Below, piece after piece: positions 938-21,843 of a stretch of DNA of 26,972 bases; within the stretch, counting starts at the first letter, position 1; each line of letters begins with the position of its first letter. This stretch comes from an uncultured Solibacteraceae bacterium. GTDB lineage: Bacteria; Acidobacteriota; Holophagae; Holophagales; Holophagaceae. The notes under the pieces are model-generated. The model saw only the letters and a program-made list of their open reading frames with translations, was not told the DNA's origin and made no database searches. The stretch lies in contig CAYQAS010000057.1 of the NCBI GenBank assembly GCA_964415525.1, positions 1-26,972 of the forward strand, given 5' to 3'. The translations under genes were made by a program, and so were the position numbers.

Positions 938-1664
938 GCAGCGCCTGGATCTCGGCGGGCGCGTCGAAGGTACTCTTCTCGATGGGCTTGTTCCACTCCA
1001 CGCTGGTGAAGGTGATCGTGAAGGTCTGGCCCGCGGCGTTGTTCACCATGGTGTGAGGCATGAGTACGTCGCCCGCCTTCTTGTAGTCCTTGGAGACCAT
1101 CTCCATGGGCATCTCACCCATGGCGGTCACCAGCTTGGTGGTCACTTTAACTAGGAAGCCTGTCTTGACGCTGTAGTAATGGGTCGCGGGCTCGCCCTTG
1201 TGGGGGGTGGCCAGCACCTTGTAGCAGGGTTCCCCTTCCACGGTTTCGGTGGCCTGGGTCTGGACGCTCTTGTAGACCTCGCGCCAGTTCTCAGCGTGGA
1301 AGAATGCCTCGCGCTCGGCGGCGATCTTCTCTGCACCCTGTTTTACCTGGGGTCCCTGCATGGGGTTGATGCCCCAGGCGTTCTTGCCGTCGAAGCCTTC
1401 GCGGATCTTGCCCATGTTTGGGATATCAACCTCGGAAAGGGTGAGGTTGGGCTCAGCCCGGTAGACGGTCATGGTGGCCTTGAGGCCCGCGGCGGGCATC
1501 TCGAAGGTGCCCTTGATGATCGCGGACTTTTTTGCCGCGAGGGTGGCCTTGCCGCCCGTGACTTCGATGGAGCGGTCGAGGATGGTCTCGGCCTTGGGAA
1601 GGGCCTGTGCCGCGAGCATGGCGGGAACGGCGAGGGAGAGCAGTGCGATTCGTGTGAAGGACAT
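927..1664 (-). CDS. Secreted LolA-like protein (outer-membrane-lipoprotein-sorting-like fold) with an N-terminal signal peptide
   Basis: The signal peptide is MSFTRIALLSLAVPAMLAAQA. The C-terminal pattern GEPCYKVL..P........YY....TGFLVK.........TFTITFTSVEWNKPI..STFD is typical of LolA_like/DUF-type proteins. An AGGAG RBS lies 7 nt upstream. The gene starts 15 nt downstream of the S41 gene, so the two are probably an operon. Confidence 0.5.
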   Translation of the reverse strand: MSFTRIALLSLAVPAMLAAQALPKAETILDRSIEVTGGKATLAAKKSAIIKGTFEMPAAGLKATMTVYRAEPNLTLSEVDIPNMGKIREGFDGKNAWGINPMQGPQVKQGAEKIAAEREAFFHAENWREVYKSVQTQATETVEGEPCYKVLATPHKGEPATHYYSVKTGFLVKVTTKLVTAMGEMPMEMVSKDYKKAGDVLMPHTMVNNAAGQTFTITFTSVEWNKPIEKSTFDAPAEIQALLKK

Positions 1665-1679
1665 GGAAGCTCCTGTGAG

Positions 1680-2951
1680 TTACTTGGTGGATTGGCGGAT
1701 CCAGGCGACGGCCTGATCCAGGATGGGATCCTGCCCTGCGAGGAGGGCGGACTGCGTGGGGACGATGACTTCATCCGGCGTCACCCCAAGGCCTTCCAGG
1801 GGCTTGCCGCCGTGGGAGATGTAGTTGGCGATGACGTATTGGAAGCCGTCGCCATTGGGGAGGCGTTCGAACATGGAGGGCAGGGCCGCACCGGCGGAGC
1901 GCGTGCCGAAGACTCGGGCTCGCTTGATGTCCTGCATGCCGCCCGCGAAGATCTCGCTGGTGGAGCCGGAACAGCCGTCGACGAGGATCGCCACGGGGCC
2001 GTCGAAGGGGGTGGGACGCGGGAAGACGACGAATTTCAAGGCCGATCCGCGCAGGGTCATGGTGCCCAGCTTGAGGCCCGTCTCACTTGTGAACCAGCCT
2101 GCAGCGCCCATGGCCATGCCACCGATGCCCCCGGGATTGCCGCGCAGGTCGAGGACGAAACCCCTGGCGGGGCCGCCTTCCGTCAAGGCTGCGCGGAAGC
2201 CGTCTGCCACGGTCTCTGGATCCATCCACATGCTGAATCGCAGAACTCGCACGTCTGCAGGAAGGCTCTTGCGCTCCAGCCAGAAGGGCATGGGCGGCAT
2301 GTTGCCAAAGGTGACCAGACGGCCCTTGGGCTCGGTGCGCCCCAGTTTCACCGGGACGATGGCCTTGCCGTTGTGGAATTCGACATCGACGGTTTCCGCG
2401 ACCTGGCCGTCCAGCAGCCCTCCCAGGCGGCGGCTGAGGATGAGGTCGTGCTGGGTGGAATCCTTGAATGCCCCACTCAGCTTCTGGAAGAGGGGCGCCA
2501 CCTCACGGCCGGAGACGCGCACCAACTCCCAGCCCGGTTTGATGCCAGCCTTGGCGGCGGGGGAGCTTGGCTCCACTTCCGTCACGATGGCCTTGCCCGC
2601 GAGAGGGCGCAGTTCAAGGCCAGGGGTGCCGCTCTCCTTCGCGCCGCTCTGAAGATCCGCGTAGACCTCTGCCGGGACGATGCCGAAGTGGGTCTGTTTC
2701 AGGCGCCCCAACATGTCCCCGAGGAGGGCGCGGATCTCGCCCACGCTGGCGGCCTTTTCAACCTTGGGCTTAAATTCGTCATGGACCTTCTGCCAGTCGA
2801 GTCCACCCAACGTCGGATCCCAGTGGCGCTTGGCGACGGTGGACCAGACCTGTTCGAAGGACTGGAGATGCAGGGCTCGTTGCTCGGAGGTCAGACCTGT
2901 GGGTGGGGCCGCGACCAGCATGGCGGGAAGCAGGAATGGCAGGAGGCGCAT
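1680..2951 (-). CDS. ctpA: S41-family C-terminal processing peptidase (CtpA/Prc-like)
   Basis: Hallmark S41 motifs are present: DLRGNPGG and GSTSEIFAGGMQD (the catalytic Ser region) plus the Lys region. I chose the start at M60 of the track ORF (ATG at 2951). That start gives a signal peptide MRLLPFLLPAMLVAAP, has an AGGA RBS, and avoids overlapping sppA. Confidence 0.8.
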   Translation of the reverse strand: MRLLPFLLPAMLVAAPPTGLTSEQRALHLQSFEQVWSTVAKRHWDPTLGGLDWQKVHDEFKPKVEKAASVGEIRALLGDMLGRLKQTHFGIVPAEVYADLQSGAKESGTPGLELRPLAGKAIVTEVEPSSPAAKAGIKPGWELVRVSGREVAPLFQKLSGAFKDSTQHDLILSRRLGGLLDGQVAETVDVEFHNGKAIVPVKLGRTEPKGRLVTFGNMPPMPFWLERKSLPADVRVLRFSMWMDPETVADGFRAALTEGGPARGFVLDLRGNPGGIGGMAMGAAGWFTSETGLKLGTMTLRGSALKFVVFPRPTPFDGPVAILVDGCSGSTSEIFAGGMQDIKRARVFGTRSAGAALPSMFERLPNGDGFQYVIANYISHGGKPLEGLGVTPDEVIVPTQSALLAGQDPILDQAVAWIRQSTK

Positions 2952-3142
2952 GGGGGATCCTTTGCTCGGAACGGATACCAGCCTTCCATCCCTGGTGTCC
3001 GAGCGGGGTATTTCCAGGCCGACGGTGGAGTTCCTGGGACGAATGGTCGATCCTCGCCGAGCAGCGGTGACGGCATCCCGGCGGGTGGGGACGAGAGGTG
3101 AGCGCCGTGTGTCACCATGAGGATCCATTCAGGAGCACTGAT

Positions 3143-12961: not shown

Positions 12962-13003
12962 ATGCAGAAAAGCCAGGACCTGCGGGTCCTGGCTTTTCTG
13001 CAT
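12962..13003. terminator. Strong hairpin between the convergent flotillin (+) and PilZ (-) genes, probably a bidirectional terminator
   Basis: ATGCAGAAAAGCCAGGAC-ctgcgg-GTCCTGGCTTTTCTGCAT forms a perfect 18-bp stem. A/T runs lie inside the stem rather than in a trailing U-tract. Confidence 0.5.
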
Positions 13004-13012
13004 GAGGGGCCG

Positions 13013-13378
13013 TCAGGCGTGCAGGGCGGGGTGCATCAGGCTCTGCACGAGGTGAGAGAGGCGTTCCTGAAAGTCAGAGGGGAGTTCCACGAACTCGAGG
13101 CCGATGGACACGGGATCGTGACCTGTGGTGTAGGCAATCCGGGCCTGGACGGGCTGGTGGGGCAGCATGGGGTGTTCCAGCACGAGGTGGTCCAGCAGGG
13201 TGGAGCGCTCCAGCACATCCATCAGCTGCAGCATCGCCTCTGGCGCCTGGAATCCGCATCCTCCCGCACCCAGCATGGTGACCGGCAGTCCGGTGAAACG
13301 GTGTCCGCCGAAGTGGAACCCGACCTGGATGTGGATCCCGGCCTCTGCGCGCGGGTACTTGCGGAACTCCTGAAGCAT
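13013..13378 (-). CDS. Single-domain PilZ (c-di-GMP-binding) protein, 121 aa
   Basis: An N-terminal RxxxR motif (FRKYPR) is followed by a hydrophobic beta region with a DxSxGG-like segment (PVTMLGAGGCGF). The C-terminus (GHDPVSIGLEFVELPSDFQERLSHLV) is PilZ-like. The amino-acid composition is protein-like rather than a GC-frame artefact. Confidence 0.5.
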   Translation of the reverse strand: MLQEFRKYPRAEAGIHIQVGFHFGGHRFTGLPVTMLGAGGCGFQAPEAMLQLMDVLERSTLLDHLVLEHPMLPHQPVQARIAYTTGHDPVSIGLEFVELPSDFQERLSHLVQSLMHPALHA

Positions 13379-13477
13379 CCGGGCCTCCTGTGCCGGTCAT
13401 TCTGCCCGCAGTTCGAGCCGTTCGCGACCGGCATCCTGCTCGAGGGGGTCTTGAAATTTCCGGGTCGAGATCCTCAG

Positions 13478-14887
13478 ATGGTTTTGAACCCTCCCCCCGG
13501 TGTCTGTTTGAACCTGCTCTCCACATTCGTCTTCGACACGGAAGGCCTCTCCCGGGCGACGCCGGAGGCCTTGGCAGAAGTCCAGCTGCGGCGGATCAAT
13601 GAGCTGGTGGCCTATGCGCGCCGCCACGCCCCATTCTACGAACGCCGGTATCGCGGTCTTCCCGAGGTCATCAGGGATGTTCGCGAGTTGCCACCTGTCA
13701 CCAAGCGGGAGCTGATGGCGAACTTCGACGAGGTGGTGACGGACCCTGCGGTGCGCGAGATCGAGGTGCGTCGGCATTTGGCAGACGTAACCCAGGTGGG
13801 ACATCCCTTCCTCGGGAAATACATGCTCTGGCGGAGCTCCGGCACCACAGGCTCGCCCTGTCTGACGTTGGCGGACTCCCATTGGGAAGCGGCCACCACC
13901 GCACTGAACGTGGTACGCCTCGCTCAGGCTTGGTACACGCCCGATGTCGTGCGCCGAATGCAGGCGCTGGGCGGGCTTCGGGTGTCCATCTTCACGGATA
14001 AGGCGCACTCCATGGGCGGGACGCAGCTCAGCCGCCAGCGCCGAACGAACCCGCAGACGGCGCGGTGCCTCCGCCTGGTTCCCATCACGCTCCCCATCCC
14101 GGAGATGGTAGAGACGCTGAATGAACTCCAGCCCGCCAGTCTCACCGGTTACGCCGCAGCCCTGGAGATCCTGGCGCTGGAGCAGTTGGCGGGTCGACTC
14201 TGCATCCGACCGGCTGTGGTGGTGAGTACAGGTGAGCTTTTACGGCCCCAAGCCAGGGCTCGCATGCTGGAAGCTTTCGGCATTCCGCCTCGCAACCTCT
14301 ACGGGACGACGGAGGCGGGGCTCATCGGCTACGAGTGTGCCTTGGGCCATCTGCACCTGAATGCCGACTGGACGCTCTTCGAGCCCGTGAGCGTGGCACA
14401 CCACCCCTCGGTATCTGGGGAGATGTCGGAGCGTGTGCTGGTCACCAACCTCGCCAACCGCATCCTTCCGGTGATCCGGTGCGAGCTGACAGATCGTGCC
14501 CGAATCCTGCCTGGGCGCTGCGCCTGTGGGCTCACACTGCCTCTGCTCGAGGTGTCAGGCCGCGCGGATGACATTCTCCTCGTTCCTGGGATTGCGGGCG
14601 GGCAGGTGCCCCTTCTGCCCCTGGCACTGGCGGCGGCGCTTCAGCAGACCCTCGGGATCGCCCGCTTCCAGGTGATCCAGACGGCGCCCGCGCAACTGCG
14701 CATCCGCCTGCTCCACCGGGATCCTGCGGAGGCCGATGCGAACTGGGCGGCTTCGGTTCGGAACATGCGGCAGATGCTGGAGGAGCATCGTGCTGCGCCC
14801 GTCGATTTGGTGCGGGCTGAGGAGCCCCCAGAGTGTGATCCCGTGAGTGGCAAGTTCCGGGAGGCCTGGTCGGTCCTCGTCCGCTGA
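13478..14887 (+). CDS. PaaK/coenzyme-F390-synthetase-like adenylate-forming enzyme (phenylacetate-CoA-ligase family)
   Basis: It has the WRSSGTTGSP P-loop motif and the YGTTE motif (NLYGTTEAG) of the PaaK/CapK/F390-synthetase family. I chose the start at ATG 13478, which is in frame with the track ORF and downstream of the PilZ gene. The upstream part of the track ORF overlaps the PilZ gene and is discarded. Confidence 0.7.
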   Translation: MVLNPPPGVCLNLLSTFVFDTEGLSRATPEALAEVQLRRINELVAYARRHAPFYERRYRGLPEVIRDVRELPPVTKRELMANFDEVVTDPAVREIEVRRHLADVTQVGHPFLGKYMLWRSSGTTGSPCLTLADSHWEAATTALNVVRLAQAWYTPDVVRRMQALGGLRVSIFTDKAHSMGGTQLSRQRRTNPQTARCLRLVPITLPIPEMVETLNELQPASLTGYAAALEILALEQLAGRLCIRPAVVVSTGELLRPQARARMLEAFGIPPRNLYGTTEAGLIGYECALGHLHLNADWTLFEPVSVAHHPSVSGEMSERVLVTNLANRILPVIRCELTDRARILPGRCACGLTLPLLEVSGRADDILLVPGIAGGQVPLLPLALAAALQQTLGIARFQVIQTAPAQLRIRLLHRDPAEADANWAASVRNMRQMLEEHRAAPVDLVRAEEPPECDPVSGKFREAWSVLVR

Positions 14888-14923: not shown

Positions 14924-15508
14924 ATGTCCAAGACCAGCTTTCCCTCCACCCCCGCCATCCGCGTGCTGAAGGCCGCGGGTGTGCCCTTCACGGAGCATCT
15001 CTACCGCTACGAGGAGAAGGGCGGCACCGCCGTCTCCGCACGGGAGCTCGGTGTGGACGAGCACTGCGTGCTCAAGACGCTGGTGATGGAGGACGACAAG
15101 GGCGGGCCGCTCATCATCCTCCAGCACGGGGATCGCGAAGTGAGCACCAAGGCCCTGGCCCGGCAGGTGGGCGCCCGCAGCATCCAGATCTGCAAGCCCG
15201 AAGTCGCCAACAAGCACAGCGGCTACCTCGTGGGCGGCACCAGCCCCTTCGGCACGAAGAAGGCCATGAAGGTGCATCTGGAGCGCAGCGTTCTGGAGCT
15301 GGAAAAGGTCTACCTGAACGGCGGCAGCAGGGGATTCCTGGTGTGCATGGCGCCTGCGGATCTCGTGAAGGTGCTTGATCCCGTGCTCGTGGATGTGGCG
15401 GGAGAGTCGCTCAGCCCTTCTTGGGACTGGTCTCCTTGGCCCCCTTGGGCACGGGCACGGGCCGACGGAAAGGCTTGTAGTTCGAGAGGTCGGGAGCCGT
15501 GTGGATGA
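14924..15508 (+). CDS. ybaK: Cys-tRNA(Pro)/Cys-tRNA(Cys) deacylase YbaK. It carries a ~35-aa C-terminal extension with no close in-frame stop.
   Basis: The YbaK/ProX deacylase domain is recognisable (..LKTLVMEDDKGGPLIILQHGDREVSTKALARQVG...GYLVGGTSPFGTKK..VYLNGGSRGFLV). The reading frame runs 98 nt into the convergent downstream gene. Confidence 0.7.
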   Translation: MSKTSFPSTPAIRVLKAAGVPFTEHLYRYEEKGGTAVSARELGVDEHCVLKTLVMEDDKGGPLIILQHGDREVSTKALARQVGARSIQICKPEVANKHSGYLVGGTSPFGTKKAMKVHLERSVLELEKVYLNGGSRGFLVCMAPADLVKVLDPVLVDVAGESLSPSWDWSPWPPWARARADGKACSSRGREPCG

Positions 15509-16589
15509 CGCGGTCCTCCTCGTCCACCACCCAATAGAAGTCCTCGTCGGCCTTGTCGCGCACGGAGAGTGCCCCGGGAGGGGCCGTTTCGAGGCGCTTC
15601 ACGGTGCCCGTGGAAGGCTTCACGGTGAACCAGGTGACGAAGGGGAAGGTTGTGCGGATCTCCGTCTCGCGTACCGCATAGACACGACCATAGTTCTCGA
15701 AGGCTTCGGGAGGGTTTCCGCGGTTGGGCGCGATCTTGCGCATGTCCGCCCAGAAGGTCTGGCGCGCCTTCAACAGATCGGGCAGCTGGTCCGCGTGCAG
15801 CGAGCTCACCAGGAGATCGCCATCCTTCAGGGGCTGGAAGTTCAGGACCGTCACCAGGCCTTCTTTGGCTTCCACCATGCGCTTCGTGACCTCTTCGCCG
15901 AAGAGCTGCGCCGTGCGCCGTAGGGCGCCGTTCTCGAGGCTGAAGATCCAGAAGACACCGTAGTGCGGCGAGGCGAGGACGAGGTGGTCCTCCGTGAGGG
16001 TCAGGGCGTGGGGTTGGAGAGCGACGTTCTTCAGCACTGGGTGGTTTTGGAAGGGCAGAGGGGTGAAGCTGCCCGACTCCAGGTGCTCCAGGGCACCCTT
16101 GTCGTTGAGGCGGTAGGTGGCGAAGGGCGCCGCGACGTGCTTCTTTGTCTCCTCCTCGGTGGGCGGTGGCCCCAGCACCAGGAACCGACCGTTCTTCAGC
16201 GGAACGAGGGTGGGCAGGAAGCCTTTCATTGCGGTGGCGGGCAGCAGCGCGATGGGCGTCCAGCCTTCGAGCTTGCGCTCGAACAGCGTCGTGCCTTTCT
16301 CGTTCCGGACGTTCACATAGAGTACCGTTCCGATGGCAAAGGGCTTCTGGTCGCCGGGGCCCTTGAGCAGGTCCACCTCGGAGGCTCCGGAAGGCGCGGC
16401 GGAAGTGCCCGGCCGGGGCACAGTCGTCACGCCCTCCCGGCCCAGCATGCGGATCTCGGAGGCGTTCGAAGCCACCAAAAGTTGGTCACCCACCCATTGG
16501 CCGATGGGGTTGACGAAAACTTCCGGGGGATCCGCCAGCATCGGCAAAACCGAGAGGGCGAGGCAGGCGAGGAGGGCGGGACACAACAT
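15411..16589 (-). CDS. Secreted protein of unknown function, 392 aa, with a signal peptide
   Basis: The signal peptide is MLCPALLACLALSVLPMLA. It is a long ORF with ordinary protein composition. I recognise no family motif. It lies directly downstream of the small secreted-peptide gene on the same strand. Confidence 0.6.
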   Translation of the reverse strand: MLCPALLACLALSVLPMLADPPEVFVNPIGQWVGDQLLVASNASEIRMLGREGVTTVPRPGTSAAPSGASEVDLLKGPGDQKPFAIGTVLYVNVRNEKGTTLFERKLEGWTPIALLPATAMKGFLPTLVPLKNGRFLVLGPPPTEEETKKHVAAPFATYRLNDKGALEHLESGSFTPLPFQNHPVLKNVALQPHALTLTEDHLVLASPHYGVFWIFSLENGALRRTAQLFGEEVTKRMVEAKEGLVTVLNFQPLKDGDLLVSSLHADQLPDLLKARQTFWADMRKIAPNRGNPPEAFENYGRVYAVRETEIRTTFPFVTWFTVKPSTGTVKRLETAPPGALSVRDKADEDFYWVVDEEDRVIHTAPDLSNYKPFRRPVPVPKGAKETSPKKG

Positions 16590-16659
16590 GAGACAGGCCT
16601 TGATTGAATTATTACATCTTGCGCGAAATGGCTGAGAGGCGGGTCGTGCCCGTAAGGCT

Positions 16660-16845
16660 TTAGGCGGGGAAGCAGTTTTTTACTGCATATTCTTGGGCGC
16701 GCGTCTTGTTCGTGGTTGCAAAGACGTCGCCGTTGGCTTTGGTGACGTAGTACACGCCACGGAAATACTCAATGGTGCAGTCTGCGGCCGAAAGCGTTGA
16801 ACCCAGGGCGCAGAAGAGAGCCGCGGTGGCGAGTTGCTTGAGCAT
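16660..16845 (-). CDS. Small secreted peptide precursor: 61 aa with a signal peptide, giving a ~40-aa mature peptide with two Cys (DCTIEYFRGVYYVTKANGDVFATTNKTRAQEYAVKNCFPA). Function unknown.
   Basis: The start is at the second ATG (MLKQLATAALFCALGSTLSAA|DC..), which has a perfect AAGGAG RBS 6 nt upstream. Cleavage is predicted after the AxA-like SAA. By eye the GC content is lower than in flanking genes. A promoter with a G9/C9 tract lies upstream. Confidence 0.5.
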   Translation of the reverse strand: MLKQLATAALFCALGSTLSAADCTIEYFRGVYYVTKANGDVFATTNKTRAQEYAVKNCFPA

Positions 16846-16874
16846 GTGTGACTCCTTCATGTGGTGTGGATGTC

Positions 16875-16903
16875 GATTCTTGCGTGGGGGGGGGTGGTGT
16901 CAA
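16875..16903 (-). promoter_or_regulatory. Putative sigma70-type promoter of the small-peptide gene. A C9 homopolymer (G9 on the + strand) forms most of the -35/-10 spacer.
   Basis: On the minus strand the sequence reads TTGACA-ccaCCCCCCCCCacgc(a)-AAGAAT / AGAATC. The -35 hexamer is perfect, the spacer is 16-17 nt, and the -10 element is weak. An ATG with an AAGGAG RBS lies about 30 nt downstream. Confidence 0.35.
16886..16894. repeat. Homopolymeric G9 (C9) tract
   Basis: It is read directly from the sequence: tgcgtGGGGGGGGGtggtg. It is the only run of 9 or more identical bases I found in the window. Confidence 0.95.
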
Positions 16904-17296
16904 TTGATTCATAGAATAGAGCTGCGATGCTCACTCTCCGCTCCGTGACTTACTGTGTTGGAATGCTTGGCGATTTCGCGAATGGGGGCTCACGCTGGAT
17001 GTCCTCTGGACATTGCGGTGAATTCCTCGTCACCGCGGCCCGTGCTGGCGTGGGGCGCATCCCAATGAGGCGTTGCCGTAAAGAAAGCACCCCCGCGGTG
17101 AGGCAGGGGCGTGTCCACTGGAGCGGGTCCTTGGCTACTTCTTGGATTCCGCTTCGTCGAGCTTCTCGCCCCGACGCGTGACGCCATCCGTGGTGACGGT
17201 GACTGTTGTGCAGCTGAATCGGTGTGGGCTTTATCGGACATGCGTCCAGAGGCGATGACATCGGCGCCAGGAGTGCAAGGGATGGGTGGAGATGTG

Positions 17297-17328
17297 GTCT
17301 AGACGACTGGTCTACTTTAGATATTATA
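17297..17328 (+). promoter_or_regulatory. Putative TetR operator and promoter. A palindromic site GTCTAGACGACTGGTCTA overlaps a -35-like element, and a TATTAT -10 lies 6 nt before the tetR ATG.
   Basis: GTCTAGAC is a perfect 8-bp palindrome, and there are TAGAC-N5-GTCTA inverted arms. The 16-mer CTAGACGACTGGTCTA recurs (14/16 identical) upstream of the ADH gene. The AT-rich TTTAGATATTATAGG stretch lies directly before the ATG, which may mean a leaderless transcript. Confidence 0.5.
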
Positions 17329-17333
17329 GGTCC

Positions 17334-17918
17334 ATGGCGCCGTCCGACGTTCGTTCCCACATCCTCGACACTGGCCTGGGCATCATCGCCCAGCGTGGCT
17401 TCACCGCGGTGGGGCTGGCGGAATTGCTGGCGGCGGCGGGGGTGCCCAAGGGCAGCTTCTATCACTGGTTCGCCAGCAAGGAAGCCTTTGGCGAGGCGAT
17501 GCTCGACCGTTACTTCGAGGACTACCTGCAGCGGATGGAACCGGTGCTGGCGGCGCCGGGGAAGGATGCCCGGGAGCGCCTGCTGGACTACTGGCGCCTC
17601 TGGCTGGAAACCCAGACCCCCTGCGCCTGTGTGCAGCCCTGTCTCGTGGTGAAGCTGGCGGCGGAGGTCTCGGATCTCAGCGAACCCATGCGGCTCTCGC
17701 TTCTACGCGGCACGCGCCGGGTGGAGGATCGTCTTAGCCGTGTGGTGGAGGAGGGGCTGCGCGTCGGCACTTTTAGCGAGATCGATCCTGCCACCACGGC
17801 GCGGAATCACTATGCCCTCTGGCTCGGTGCGAGCCTCTTGGCCAAGATTACGCGTTCTGGCGAGCCTCTGGTGGCGGCCTTCCGGGCCACCGAGACTCAG
17901 TTGACGCCTTCCAAATAA
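17334..17918 (+). CDS. TetR/AcrR-family transcriptional regulator
   Basis: The N-terminal HTH is typical: ..ILDTGLGIIAQRGFTAVGLAELLAAAGVPKGSFYHWFASKEAF. I chose the start at MAPSD (ATG 17334), downstream of the operator. The upstream GTG/ATG in the track ORF would place the operator inside the coding region. Confidence 0.85.
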   Translation: MAPSDVRSHILDTGLGIIAQRGFTAVGLAELLAAAGVPKGSFYHWFASKEAFGEAMLDRYFEDYLQRMEPVLAAPGKDARERLLDYWRLWLETQTPCACVQPCLVVKLAAEVSDLSEPMRLSLLRGTRRVEDRLSRVVEEGLRVGTFSEIDPATTARNHYALWLGASLLAKITRSGEPLVAAFRATETQLTPSK

Positions 17919-19245: not shown

Positions 19246-21843
19246 TCAGTGGTAGGTCACACGATAGAGATCCGCAGCAACCTGCCCCTGATGGAGGATC
19301 TCGTACACGTAACCGGCCCCATCTGCCGTGATGTCAAATTCCGTCACGATGGCGTTTCGATCCGTGGGGCCCGAAATCTGTTGAACCCGGGTCAGGGTTC
19401 CGTTCTTCACGCTGCATCGCCAGAGGGTCAGGGGGAAGGCGCCAGAGCCGTTGCTCGTGCTCAGCAGCCAGATGGACTTGCCATCGGTGCTCCAGCCCAC
19501 AGGGGACTTTCCCACCACGGCTGAAGGAAGGGGAAGCATGGTTCCGAGGAGGAGGTTCACCTGGTACCAGGTCGCGGTGGGTGCCTGCTCTTTGCGCACC
19601 ATGGCCCATTGTCCGTCGGGCGAGAGGGGGCCTGTGAACTCCGCGGCAGACCAGGGGAGCCGGGTCAGGGTCCCTGCCTCGACATCGCACAGGTAGGGGA
19701 TCGATGGACCCTCTGGATCTCCGGCCTGACGTCCGAACAGGAAGACTTTCTGTGCCGTTCCCGCGAATCGAACCTGGGCCGTGAGCCAATTCCCCGGCAG
19801 ATGGGTGGACTTTCCAGGGCCCACCGGAACACGCTGGAAGCGTCTGAAGGAGCCCACGTCGGTCCATACCAGCACCCAGAGGTTGTCCGGAGAGATGGTC
19901 GCCACGGGGCCCTCAGTGATCGGCATGACCTCGGGGGCTCCGGCCCTCTGCAGTTTTCCCTGATACGTCGGGGTGCCATTCCAGCTGTTGAAGGCGAGCA
20001 GGTGTCCATCCCGGCTGAGGCCGCTGAGACTCTGAAATCGTCCGGCACTCACGGGACGCTCGTTCGCGGCCCCAGGTGCGAGCCATCGGAGGCTGACCCC
20101 CGTCCCCTCCCAGCCTTTGGGCGAAATCAGCACATCGCCGGTGGTATGGACGTCGTACAGGTTCGGCAGCCCTTCGAAGGCGCGCACCATTCGCTTCAAC
20201 CGACCTCGATCATCCATTTCCACCAGTTGGCTGCCGCTACGACCCTCATCAGGCACGGCGAGGCCCAGCAGGCGATTCCCTTTGCTATAGAGGGTGCCCA
20301 TGACTCTCGTCGGGAGCGGGTATGGCCCGAAATGAGCCCCATCCAATGAAAGGACCCGTAGCCTTTGACCCCAGCCGGCCTTTTCGACAAAGGCGATCCG
20401 TCTTCCGGGCAGCGCGGCCATGGCGCCGATTTCGGCTTGGGGGGAGGCCTCGAACAGGCAACGCCCCTGGAACTCTATGCCTTGGATCTTGCGACCCTGG
20501 AAATTCGCGTGACAGATCACAGGAGACGGCTCACCCGGCACCCAGAGCACCTGATCGTCGGGAGTGGCGAAGCGGTCTGAGATGACACGGGGGGTGCCTC
20601 CTTCCAGCGAACGCACCGCAAGAACCGGCTGATCGCCATGGAGGTAGAGGGCGATGTCGCCTCGAGGCGAAATCCCGAGCACCTTGGCATCCTTCACGCC
20701 CACAGACTGGGGGGCTGTTCCGGGCCCCATCAGATAGAGTTCGTGTGAATCCGCAGCATCCGGACTGCCCGTGAAAGCCACGGATTTCCCATCGGGCAGG
20801 AATCGGGCGGCGCTGTAGAACCAAGGCGCCGGATTGAGGCGCTCCATGTGGGGTTCAGGACGGGGACGCAGGCGGTGGCCTCCGACGACACCCAGTCCCA
20901 GGAGGGCCAGAACGCCTGCCGCTGCAAGGAGCCTTGGCCTCGTGAGTTTGGATCGCGTGCGAAGCGGAGCAACAGCGGACGTTCCCTGGCTTTCCGCATC
21001 CAGGGCGAAGATCAGATCGTGTGCGGTGTGGAAGCGGAGGTCTGGATCCTTGGAAAGGCAGGTACGGACAATGCGCTCCAGCAGCGGGGAAACCTTCAGG
21101 GCCGGGTCCAGGTCCGGCAGTTCTCCCTCCAGCACCTGATACATGATTTCGACCTGGCTCTCGCCCTGGAATGGGCGTGTGCCGGTGAGCAGCTCCCACA
21201 GGACGATGCCAAGGGCAAACAGGTCGGATCGGCCGTCCAATGCCTTCCCCCGGATCTGTTCCGGGCTCATGTACCCGAGGGTCCCGAGGATCATGCCGAC
21301 CTGGGTGGAGTTCGCTTCGACCAACGCCAAGGTTCGCTCATCCACGGCGGGCGTGAGGTCCGGACGGCGCCAGAGCTTGGCGAGGCCGAAGTCCAGCACC
21401 TTCACCCGCCGATCCTGGCAAATGAAGATGTTCTCGGGCTTGAGATCCCGATGGATGATGCCCTTGCCGTGGGCGGCGTGGAGGCCTTCAGCCACCGCCC
21501 GGACGATCTCCACGGTTCGGCGGGTGGCCATGGGTTTTCCTGCGAGAGCCTGCCGAAGGGATTGCCCTGTGAGCAACTCCATGACGAGATACGGGCGCTC
21601 TTCCCAACTTCCTACGTCAAAGAGGGTGACGAGGTTGGGGTGGTTGAGATCCCCGATGGTGCGGGCTTCCAGTTCAAAGCGCCGCAGGAGTTCGCGGTCT
21701 GCCTTGTAGGTCGGATGCAGCAGTTTGATGGCGACGTCACGCCCTAAGCGCGTGTCCTGTGCCCGGTAGATGGCCCCCATCCCCCCTGCGCCAATCTGGG
21801 CGAGGATCTTGTAGGGGCCAATGACAGTCCCTTCTGAAATCAT
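19246..21843 (-). CDS. Hanks-type Ser/Thr protein kinase with one TM segment and a C-terminal periplasmic beta-propeller (TolB/WD40-like) sensor domain, 865 aa
   Basis: Kinase motifs are present: GAGGMGAIY (G-loop), VAIK, HRDLKPEN, DFG, GTLGYMSPE. A TM segment (LLAAAGVLALLGLGVVGG) is followed by ~500 aa of repetitive beta-rich sequence. Confidence 0.85.
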   Translation of the reverse strand: MISEGTVIGPYKILAQIGAGGMGAIYRAQDTRLGRDVAIKLLHPTYKADRELLRRFELEARTIGDLNHPNLVTLFDVGSWEERPYLVMELLTGQSLRQALAGKPMATRRTVEIVRAVAEGLHAAHGKGIIHRDLKPENIFICQDRRVKVLDFGLAKLWRRPDLTPAVDERTLALVEANSTQVGMILGTLGYMSPEQIRGKALDGRSDLFALGIVLWELLTGTRPFQGESQVEIMYQVLEGELPDLDPALKVSPLLERIVRTCLSKDPDLRFHTAHDLIFALDAESQGTSAVAPLRTRSKLTRPRLLAAAGVLALLGLGVVGGHRLRPRPEPHMERLNPAPWFYSAARFLPDGKSVAFTGSPDAADSHELYLMGPGTAPQSVGVKDAKVLGISPRGDIALYLHGDQPVLAVRSLEGGTPRVISDRFATPDDQVLWVPGEPSPVICHANFQGRKIQGIEFQGRCLFEASPQAEIGAMAALPGRRIAFVEKAGWGQRLRVLSLDGAHFGPYPLPTRVMGTLYSKGNRLLGLAVPDEGRSGSQLVEMDDRGRLKRMVRAFEGLPNLYDVHTTGDVLISPKGWEGTGVSLRWLAPGAANERPVSAGRFQSLSGLSRDGHLLAFNSWNGTPTYQGKLQRAGAPEVMPITEGPVATISPDNLWVLVWTDVGSFRRFQRVPVGPGKSTHLPGNWLTAQVRFAGTAQKVFLFGRQAGDPEGPSIPYLCDVEAGTLTRLPWSAAEFTGPLSPDGQWAMVRKEQAPTATWYQVNLLLGTMLPLPSAVVGKSPVGWSTDGKSIWLLSTSNGSGAFPLTLWRCSVKNGTLTRVQQISGPTDRNAIVTEFDITADGAGYVYEILHQGQVAADLYRVTYH

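What the first reader, a model, noticed from the sequence alone, without database searches (positions are those of the whole stretch)
16660..16845. Lower-GC mini-gene for a ~40-aa secreted two-cysteine peptide upstream of an unknown 392-aa secreted protein
The ORF has a perfect AAGGAG RBS and a textbook signal peptide. Its mature product, DCTIEYFRGVYYVTKANGDVFATTNKTRAQEYAVKNCFPA, has Cys at positions 2 and 37 and could form a single disulfide ring. By eye its GC content is clearly lower than its neighbours. It lies 70 nt upstream of, and on the same strand as, a secreted 392-aa protein for which I find no recognisable domain. This could be an undescribed secreted peptide, for example a signal, bacteriocin-like or chaperoned pair, possibly under phase-variable control. 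A peptide this small is routinely missed by annotation pipelines.
Basis: partly seen in the sequence, partly recalled or inferred. Interest (0 to 1): 0.6.

Follow-up and report, generated by a model that had tools for sequence, protein, structure and literature searches.

The report
Secreted mini-protein paired with propeller protein
The small ORF is a real gene for an exported, disulfide-closed 40-residue mini-protein that sits in front of a secreted beta-propeller gene, and this undescribed two-gene cassette recurs in many divergent copies in Holophagales (Acidobacteriota), with its function still unknown.

Summary

The peptide has no detectable sequence homologue. The 392-aa protein belongs to an un-named beta-propeller family (126 cluster representatives, no Pfam or NCBIfam match). 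Six of its seven closest full-length relatives carry their own 61-80 aa gene just upstream, each with a signal peptide and a Cys...Cys frame.

Across 60 family members, 40% have such an ORF, against 5.5% at random positions (p 3e-15). One orthologous peptide pair gives dN/dS 0.09 in the mature domain. AlphaFold models the 40-mer confidently (pLDDT 91) as three strands plus a helix.

All genomic hits are Holophagales MAGs, many from termite gut. Some cassettes are in tandem arrays, and one is on a plasmid-like contig.

I read it as a co-transcribed, exported cognate pair. An effector/immunity-like role is possible but unproven. Phase variation is not supported: the C9 tract lies in the promoter spacer, but such tracts are expected by chance and no length variation was seen. 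The gene is already called in NCBI, so annotation did not miss it.

The parts
16898..16903 (-). -35-like hexamer TTGACA
   Evidence: Consensus scan. It found 2 promoter-like sites in 15300-17400, against 0.5 expected.
16886..16894 (-). C9 homopolymer (G9 on the + strand) inside the 16-nt promoter spacer
   Evidence: It is the only run of 9 in the window, but 2.8 are expected by chance. The L001 and L002 contigs are identical to the window here.
16876..16881 (-). -10-like hexamer AAGAAT
   Evidence: The site matches 10 of 12 consensus positions, with a 16-nt spacer.
16852..16857 (-). Shine-Dalgarno AAGGAG, 6 nt before the ATG at 16845
   Evidence: Read directly from the sequence.
16783..16845 (-). 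Signal peptide, residues 1-21 (MLKQLATAALFCALGSTLSAA)
   Evidence: n/h/c regions and small residues at -3 and -1, by inspection. Not run through SignalP.
16663..16782 (-). Mature 40-aa mini-protein with Cys2 and Cys37; predicted three strands plus a C-terminal helix
   Evidence: AlphaFold2 on the single sequence gives pLDDT 91.3. The two Cys are the only invariant columns in alignments of the syntenic peptides.
16660..16662 (-). Stop codon TAA of the mini-protein gene
16590..16659 (-). 70-nt spacer between the two genes, with no terminator
   Evidence: No minus-strand terminator-like site. The RNA fold is no more stable than shuffles, z +1.16. A weak AAGG lies 9 nt before the next ATG.
15411..16589 (-). 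Gene for the 392-aa exported beta-propeller protein of an un-named family

Best explanation
The ORF is a genuine gene. Its 61-aa precursor is exported by the Sec pathway and loses a 21-aa signal peptide. The remaining 40-aa mini-protein folds into a three-stranded sheet packed against one helix, and a Cys2-Cys37 disulfide ties the two ends together.

It is transcribed from a sigma-70-like promoter about 30 nt upstream of the RBS, together with the next gene. That gene encodes an exported beta-propeller protein with no conserved catalytic-looking residues. Both products therefore reach the same compartment, the periplasm or beyond.

I infer that the mini-protein is the cognate binding partner of its own propeller, and that the cassette acts as a specificity pair. 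The cassette is one of many strongly diverged copies restricted, as far as seen, to Holophagales. About a third of the propeller paralogues carry their own mini-protein gene.

Shown: the gene is real, the export signals are present, the cassette architecture is conserved, the mature domain is under purifying selection, both families are expanded, and neither is annotated.

Inferred: the disulfide, co-transcription, physical binding, and any biological role.
For: Gene features:
- Coding signature and RBS.
- The exact protein is already called in NCBI and Logan.
- Confident single-sequence fold, pLDDT 91.3.
- No terminator between the genes.

Conserved pairing:
- The propeller family has 126 representatives.
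- Independently called 61-80 aa genes with a signal peptide and a Cys...Cys frame lie 11-78 nt upstream of 6 of the 7 closest full-length relatives looked up: P0005, P0006, P0007, P0010, P0011 and P0012.
- Census: 24 of 60 propellers have such an ORF, against 165 of 3000 random positions, p 3e-15.

Sequence relationships:
- The two Cys are the only invariant columns.
- Window against L007 gives a gapless Cys-to-Cys alignment, E 1e-4. L007 against L017 gives E 5e-7.
- The window peptide's nearest peptide (L007) belongs to its propeller's nearest paired relative. Nearest neighbours coincide in 6 of 18 pairs, against about 1 expected.
- The orthologous peptides in L017 and L019 have the same length, with dN/dS 0.21 overall and 0.09 in the mature part.

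Linkage as a unit:
- Three tandem cassettes in L030 share 95-99% identical 5' modules but have diverged mature domains and propellers of 40-52% identity.
- Neighbouring genes differ in every locus, so no third partner is conserved.
- The mature propeller has no Cys, so the two peptide Cys must pair with each other.
Against: - Binding was not tested. No complex prediction was possible.
- About 60% of propeller paralogues have no upstream mini-protein, so the propeller does not need one in general.
- Sequence homology among the peptides is weak. Leave-one-out profiles recover the window peptide only at E 0.021 (rank 1 of 2964) and most others poorly.
- The global correlation between peptide and propeller similarity is nil (Mantel r 0.00, p 0.5).
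- About 3 of the 24 census hits are expected false positives, and I judge roughly 6 to be so on inspection.
- The signal-peptide and disulfide calls rest on inspection and on the model's topology, not on a dedicated predictor or measured distances.
Confidence: 0.5

Rival explanations
1. Bacteriocin-like effector plus immunity. The mini-protein is a Sec-exported toxin acting in the cell envelope. The propeller is its periplasmic immunity or escort protein, and lone propellers are orphan immunity genes. This is a more specific version of the cognate-pair reading.
For: - The gene order is small gene first, then partner.
- Paralogues are extremely divergent on a fixed scaffold.
- The tandem array in L030 has near-identical 5' modules and diverged 3' parts.
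- There are many propellers without a peptide.
- One cassette lies on an 8.5-kb plasmid-like contig with ParA, Rep and PhD/ParE genes.
- There is a precedent for a periplasmic partial beta-propeller immunity protein, Tsi1 (PMC3391265).
- The family is expanded in dense gut communities (PMC7024585).
Against: - No known toxin or immunity domain in Pfam, NCBIfam, PADLOC or PHROGs.
- No dedicated exporter, lysis gene or double-glycine leader, and no route across the outer membrane is evident.
- The proposed immunity protein is ten times larger than the proposed toxin.
- Orthologues show purifying rather than diversifying selection.
Confidence: 0.2
2. Two exported proteins with independent functions that merely share a promoter. 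For example, the mini-protein could be a stand-alone inhibitor or stress protein, and the propeller a ligand-binding protein.
For: - Most propeller paralogues lack a mini-protein.
- There is no global co-variation between the two families.
- In one close relative the upstream gene is a thioredoxin-like protein instead.
Against: - The linkage persists across propellers that are only 20-30% identical, and in different genomic contexts.
- Enrichment is 40% against 5.5%.
- The cassettes duplicate as units.
Confidence: 0.18
3. Small subunit of a periplasmic redox or quinoprotein-type enzyme, like the light subunit of methylamine dehydrogenase sitting on its propeller heavy chain. In this reading the Cys pair is redox-active or cofactor-forming.
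For: - A thioredoxin-fold gene replaces the mini-protein upstream of P0004.
Against: - No conserved catalytic residues.
- No maturation genes of the mauG or radical-SAM type nearby.
- Apart from the two Cys, the mini-protein sequences are too variable for a cofactor site.
- No sequence match to any solved light subunit.
Confidence: 0.06
4. Secreted signalling peptide with its binding protein, as a pherotype-like pair.
For: A small Sec-exported product, many divergent paralogous cassettes, and one on a plasmid-like contig. This is reminiscent of Rap-Phr-type cassettes (from general knowledge).
Against: - The propeller has no transmembrane or signalling output domain.
- A folded 40-aa disulfide domain is unlike processed oligopeptide signals.
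- No sensor kinase or regulator is conserved next to the cassettes.
Confidence: 0.04
5. Chance ORF in an AT-richer intergenic region; not a gene.
For: No sequence homologue in 5.8 billion proteins other than itself.
Against: RBS, signal peptide and coding-like codon-position GC. Confident fold. Conserved synteny and enrichment. Purifying selection in family members.
Confidence: 0.02

Closest known systems
Polymorphic effector-immunity / bacteriocin-immunity gene pairs (e.g. colicin-Im, T6SS Tse1-Tsi1)
   Same: A two-gene cassette with the small gene first. The scaffolds are conserved and the sequences highly divergent. There are many paralogues, apparent 'orphan' partners, a tandem array with conserved 5' modules, and one plasmid-like carrier. 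Tsi1 is a periplasmic partial propeller (PMC3391265).
   Different: No recognised toxin or immunity domain. Export is by a plain Sec signal rather than a dedicated system. There is no lysis or transporter gene. The partner is far larger than the putative effector. No activity has been shown.
Methylamine dehydrogenase (propeller heavy chain plus small disulfide-rich light chain)
   Different: The light chain is about 130 aa with six disulfides and a Trp-derived cofactor, and it needs mau accessory genes. None of that is present here, and the mini-proteins are too variable.
UPF0339 / YegP (DUF1508) beta3-alpha domains
Phase-variable promoters with a homopolymer in the -35/-10 spacer (e.g. Neisseria opc/porA, Bordetella fim; from general knowledge)
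   Same: A C9 tract inside a 16-nt spacer. A G9 tract also lies upstream of the homologous peptide gene in L008, and a (GT)6 repeat upstream of the one in L009.
   Different: The tract is not more frequent than chance. No length variation between the window and the two run-derived contigs. Most other cassettes have no tract.

Membership tests
Sec (type I signal peptidase) exported proteins | Positively charged n-region, hydrophobic h-region of 10-15 residues, small residues at -3 and -1 | tested here: met
   MLK / QLATAALFCALGSTL / S-A-A|D, by inspection. The syntenic peptides show the same layout. No dedicated predictor was available.
Lipoproteins (type II signal peptide) | Lipobox [LVI][ASTVI][GAS]C at the end of the signal peptide | tested here: not met
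   The Cys at precursor position 12 is preceded by A-L-F, and Cys23 by A-A-D. One distant family member (L023/L040) does have L-S-I-T-G-C.
UPF0339 / YegP (Pfam DUF1508) | Match to the family profile | tested here: not met
   No hit even at E<=10 for the 40-mer or for 9 family members. The profile search of PDB sequences finds no UPF0339 chain.
UPF0339 / YegP (Pfam DUF1508) | Beta3-alpha fold | tested here: inconclusive
Methylamine dehydrogenase-type quinoproteins | Light-subunit homology and maturation genes (mauG etc.) in the cluster | tested here: not met
   No PDB sequence match for the peptide or its profile. The neighbours are YbaK-like, TetR, Fe-ADH and a kinase.
Methylamine dehydrogenase-type quinoproteins | Heavy-chain propeller homology | tested here: inconclusive
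Polymorphic toxin / bacteriocin-immunity cassettes | Adjacent effector and partner genes that diversify together, with a constant 5' part and a variable 3' part | tested here: met
   The cassette is conserved across divergent paralogues. The L030 array has 95-99% identical 5' modules and diverged remainders.
Polymorphic toxin / bacteriocin-immunity cassettes | Recognisable toxin or immunity domain, or a dedicated export or lysis function | tested here: not met
   No Pfam, NCBIfam, PADLOC or PHROGs match. No transporter or lysis gene is conserved nearby.
Polymorphic toxin / bacteriocin-immunity cassettes | Growth inhibition by the effector and protection by the partner | not testable with these tools
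   Needs experiments.
Phase-variable (slipped-strand) promoters | Homopolymer tract in the promoter spacer | tested here: met
   The C9 tract at 16886-16894 lies within the 16-nt spacer.
Phase-variable (slipped-strand) promoters | Tract length differs between sequences or reads; tract over-represented | tested here: not met
   The L001 and L002 contigs are 100% identical to the window. One tract is observed against 2.8 expected.
RiPP precursor peptides | Modifying enzyme genes adjacent; leader peptide rather than a Sec signal | tested here: not met
   No such genes are present in the window or in the called genes of the related loci examined. The N-terminus is a Sec-type signal peptide.

The most novel reading that the evidence does not exclude
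Holophagales carry a previously unrecognised, lineage-wide system of polymorphic secreted cassettes. In each, a disulfide-stapled beta3-alpha mini-protein and its cognate beta-propeller form a strain-specific lock-and-key pair, used for interbacterial antagonism (toxin/immunity) or recognition. Some copies would be switched by slipped-strand tracts in their promoters and spread on small plasmids.
Probability: 0.2. Interest if true: 0.8.

Novelty: new variant of a known kind. Interest (0 to 1): 0.6.

Why it matters
Acidobacteriota are abundant but poorly understood, and very little is known about what they secrete. Here two protein families with no annotation at all turn out to form a recurrent, duplicating two-gene cassette. 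One MAG holds at least five propeller paralogues, and the motif scan found 57 matching contig stretches in a handful of metagenomes that include termite-gut samples.

If the pair is a specificity module (effector/immunity or ligand/receptor), it would be a new toolkit for competition or recognition in gut and soil communities. It would also be a source of very small, stable, disulfide-closed binding domains.

The case also shows that small proteins invisible to homology search can be validated through synteny with a detectable partner.

Tried and rejected
- Direct homology search with the peptide found only itself.
- Pfam, NCBIfam, PADLOC and PHROGs gave nothing meaningful for either protein. 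The CoV_S1_C hit (E 0.008-0.018, below cut-off) is noise.
- Rfam found nothing in the window or in the 16500-17400 region.
- The search for related loci with family alignments A1 and A2 failed because there is no conserved stretch. I replaced it with a hand-made degenerate DNA pattern for the GxFWxFSLExGxLxRxxxLF motif.
- The third word-index protein search, run with the alignment, returned only 5 proteins.
- YegP/DUF1508 idea for the mini-protein, recalled from memory: no sequence support, only weak fold resemblance. Rejected as membership.
- Foldseek of the 40-mer against the PDB gave no significant hit.
- 'Signal peptide more conserved than mature domain' as a general feature: not supported, 32% against 29% identity. 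It holds only in the L030 array.
- Mirror-tree (Mantel) test of co-divergence gave r = 0. Only nearest-neighbour agreement is seen.
- Leave-one-out profiles are weak for most peptides, so I do not claim a sequence-defined peptide family beyond the closest group (window, L007, L017/L019).
- tblastn of two propellers against PLSDB plasmids gave no match.
- Repeats or operators in the 16600-17300 region: none found.
- Phase variation: considered and downgraded.

Full report
**What is in the window**

The finding is on the minus strand. The ORF runs from the ATG at 16845 to the TAA at 16662-16660 and encodes 61 aa. A second in-frame ATG at 16860 would give 66 aa. AAGGAG (16857-16852) lies 6 nt before the ATG at 16845, and the NCBI and Logan gene calls use that start.

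The gene's GC content is 0.559, against 0.657 for the window. That is the 1.8th percentile of windows of this length, and the lowest-GC stretch of the whole window covers its 3' half and the spacer. GC by codon position is 0.52/0.47/0.69, which is coding-like.

A promoter-like site, TTGACA-N16-AAGAAT, lies at 16903-16876, and the C9 run sits inside its spacer. The next gene starts 70 nt downstream on the same strand (16589->15411, 392 aa). No terminator-like element or stable hairpin lies between the two genes, so co-transcription is likely but is inferred.

**Neither protein is annotated anywhere**

Pfam, NCBIfam, PADLOC and PHROGs give nothing for either protein. PDB sequence searches give nothing either. 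A search of 5.8 billion proteins with the peptide returns only itself. It comes from NCBI and from two Logan assemblies whose contigs are 100% identical to the window. The gene has therefore not been missed by annotation, but it has no detectable sequence relatives.

**The downstream protein defines a family**

An exhaustive HMMER search found 126 representative clusters at E<=1e-3, and 35 at E<=1e-10. They are 20-33% identical to the query and mostly 370-430 aa long. Sixty of them have no Pfam domain.

The conserved columns are Trp, Pro and Gly of the blades. None looks catalytic. The mature window protein has no cysteine.

**The pairing is conserved**

I looked up the contigs encoding the closest relatives. 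Six of the seven closest full-length ones have an independently called small gene immediately upstream on the same strand:

| Propeller relative | Locus | Upstream gene | Gap to propeller |
|---|---|---|---|
| P0005 | L007 | 61 aa | 11 nt |
| P0006 | L009 | 80 aa | 66 nt |
| P0007 | L008 | not called; in-frame TAG in the signal peptide | 71 nt |
| P0010 | L010-12 | 69 aa | 78 nt |
| P0011 | L084/85 | 65 aa | 52 nt |
| P0012 | L086 | 77 aa | 67 nt |

The L008 ORF is the exception to 'independently called': the gene caller did not call it, and it was found by reading the frames.

Each encodes a signal peptide, a Cys within a few residues of the predicted cleavage site, 34-51 further residues, and a Cys near the C-terminus. 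The ending is often [YW]xxx[NGHD]C.

P0004 lacks the small gene and has a thioredoxin-like gene upstream instead. The more distant P0003 and P0065/P0128 also lack it.

**Wider census**

I back-translated the family's GxFWxFSLExGxLxRxxxLF motif into a degenerate DNA pattern.
- In one genome per GTDB species, the pattern hit 13 stretches. Twelve are true family members, and all twelve are Holophagales or Holophagaceae MAGs. One MAG (WRHW01, Nt197P3bin133) has five.
- In JGI metagenomes it hit 57 stretches from a handful of samples.
- The Nt197 label is the humus-feeding termite Neocapritermes taracua, and its Holophagaceae MAGs belong to a termite-gut group (PMC7024585).

A local HMM found about 85 propeller genes in these loci, some in tandem arrays. 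Of the 60 with at least 300 nt of upstream sequence, 24 have a same-strand small ORF with a signal-peptide-like N-terminus and a Cys...Cys frame ending near the propeller start. The same detector fires at 165 of 3000 random positions (5.5%), binomial p 3e-15. By eye, about 18 of the 24 are convincing. Three further cases escaped the filter: L040, L008 and the first cassette of L030.

About a third of the paralogues therefore carry a mini-protein. The rest do not.

**Are the mini-proteins homologous to each other?**

In alignments, only the two cysteines are invariant. The closest group is convincing:
- Window against L007 aligns without gaps from Cys to Cys, with identical 34-residue spacing (E 1e-4).
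- L007 against L017 gives E 5e-7.
- Window against L017 gives E 0.017.

A profile built without the window peptide ranks it first among 2964 unrelated ORFs, but only at E 0.021. Most other leave-one-out tests fail.

A global peptide-versus-propeller similarity correlation is absent (r 0.00). However, nearest neighbours coincide in 6 of 18 pairs against about 1 expected, and window-L007 is one of those pairs.

The profile also picked up two ORFs I had not selected, each right in front of another propeller: L020 (a paralogue of L025) and L019 (an orthologue of L017).

The L017/L019 orthologues are both 68 aa. Their dN/dS is 0.21 overall, 0.09 in the mature domain and 0.51 in the signal peptide, with dS near saturation. 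At least this branch of the family, the one nearest the window peptide, is therefore a protein under purifying selection.

**Fold of the mini-protein**

AlphaFold2 on the single sequence gives pLDDT 91.3, with strands at 3-7, 10-14 and 20-23 and a helix at 26-37. Such confidence without an alignment is unusual for a non-protein ORF (general knowledge).

**How the cassettes evolve**

In L030, three cassettes stand in tandem. The first 130-238 nt of each peptide gene, plus its upstream region, are 95-99% identical. The mature domains share no detectable DNA similarity, and the propellers are 40-52% identical.

One cassette lies on an 8.5-kb contig whose other recognisable genes are a ParA-like ATPase, a ribbon-helix-helix-like protein, a Rep-like protein and a PhD/ParE pair. 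The contig is plasmid-like, but circularity is not shown.

The flanking genes differ in every locus. The two genes therefore form the unit, and no third component is conserved.

**Interpretation**

Shown:
- The gene is real and carries an export signal.
- It sits in a conserved two-gene architecture with an exported propeller.
- Both families are un-named, expanded, and restricted to Holophagales in the searches run here.

Inferred:
- The two products are made together and meet in the periplasm or outside.
- The mini-protein binds its own propeller.

I put this cognate-pair reading at about 0.5.

The more specific effector/immunity reading (about 0.2) fits the gene order, the divergence on a fixed scaffold, the apparent orphan propellers, the tandem array and the plasmid-like carrier. 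It also has a structural precedent in the partial-propeller immunity protein Tsi1 (PMC3391265). Against it, there is no toxin domain, no exporter, no route across the outer membrane and no sign of diversifying selection between orthologues.

The other readings are:
- independent functions under one promoter (about 0.18);
- a methylamine-dehydrogenase-like small subunit (about 0.06);
- a signalling peptide (about 0.04);
- a chance ORF (about 0.02).

**Phase variation**

The C9 tract is correctly placed to modulate promoter spacing. A G9 tract lies about 40 nt upstream of the RBS of the homologous peptide gene in L008, and a (GT)6 repeat lies upstream of the one in L009. On the other hand, a G9/C9 run is expected 2.8 times by chance in this window. 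The contigs from two independent runs are identical to the window across the tract, and most cassettes have no tract. I treat it as an open lead, not a finding.

**Verdict**

The function remains unknown.

I rate it as a new variant of a known general kind, a co-encoded exported small protein and its partner. Both families are undescribed. Interest is 0.6.

Noticed in passing
window 17088-17111 (minus strand): A terminator-like hairpin (9 pairs, 7 G-C) followed by CTTTCTTTAC, about 185 nt upstream of the mini-protein promoter. No obvious minus-strand gene lies before it: the neighbouring TetR gene points the other way. The 426-nt intergenic region has no Rfam match and no repeats.
   Followed up: partly
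window 15411-15508: The 3' end of the propeller gene and the 3' end of the convergent YbaK-like (tRNA_edit) gene overlap by 98 nt as called. The last 45 or so residues of the YbaK-like ORF lie outside its Pfam domain, so its stop may be a read-through.
   Followed up: no
L008 1394-1618: The homologous peptide gene upstream of P0007 has an in-frame TAG in its signal peptide (MAKRFIT*ACLAF...) after a perfect AAGGAG-N7-ATG, and a G9 tract about 40 nt upstream. It could be a pseudogene, a switched-off allele or an assembly error.
   Followed up: partly
L030 1-5857: Three tandem mini-protein/propeller cassettes. The 5' modules (upstream region, signal peptide and N-terminal linker) are 95-99% identical in DNA. 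The rest is strongly diverged, which suggests gene conversion or recombination at the 5' ends.
   Followed up: partly
L034 460-2581: One family member is a 707-aa fusion of the propeller with a C-terminal LolA_like domain (PF17131, E 1.2e-5, below the gathering score). This hints at a cell-envelope or periplasmic role.
   Followed up: partly
L083 (8530 nt; cassette at 1626-3113): A plasmid-like contig with a ParA-like gene, an RHH-like gene, a Rep-like gene and a PhD/ParE pair. Its main recognisable cargo is one mini-protein/propeller cassette. No terminal overlap was found, so circularity is not shown.
   Followed up: partly
L006 2411-3820: In the closest propeller relative (P0004), the upstream gene is a 469-aa exported thioredoxin/AhpC-TSA-like protein with a WCPPC motif, in place of a mini-protein. 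This could link the system to thiol-disulfide chemistry, or it could be coincidence.
   Followed up: no
window 19246-21843 (minus strand): An 865-aa Ser/Thr protein kinase. Its long C-terminal part carries faint Tricorn_N/PD40-like propeller hits in the precomputed annotation. It is unrelated in sequence to the 392-aa family.
   Followed up: no
window 12962-14887: A 641-aa ORF with only a weak AMP-binding match (E 0.007) in its C-terminal half. The N-terminal 200 or so residues look like an over-extended start in high-GC sequence.
   Followed up: no
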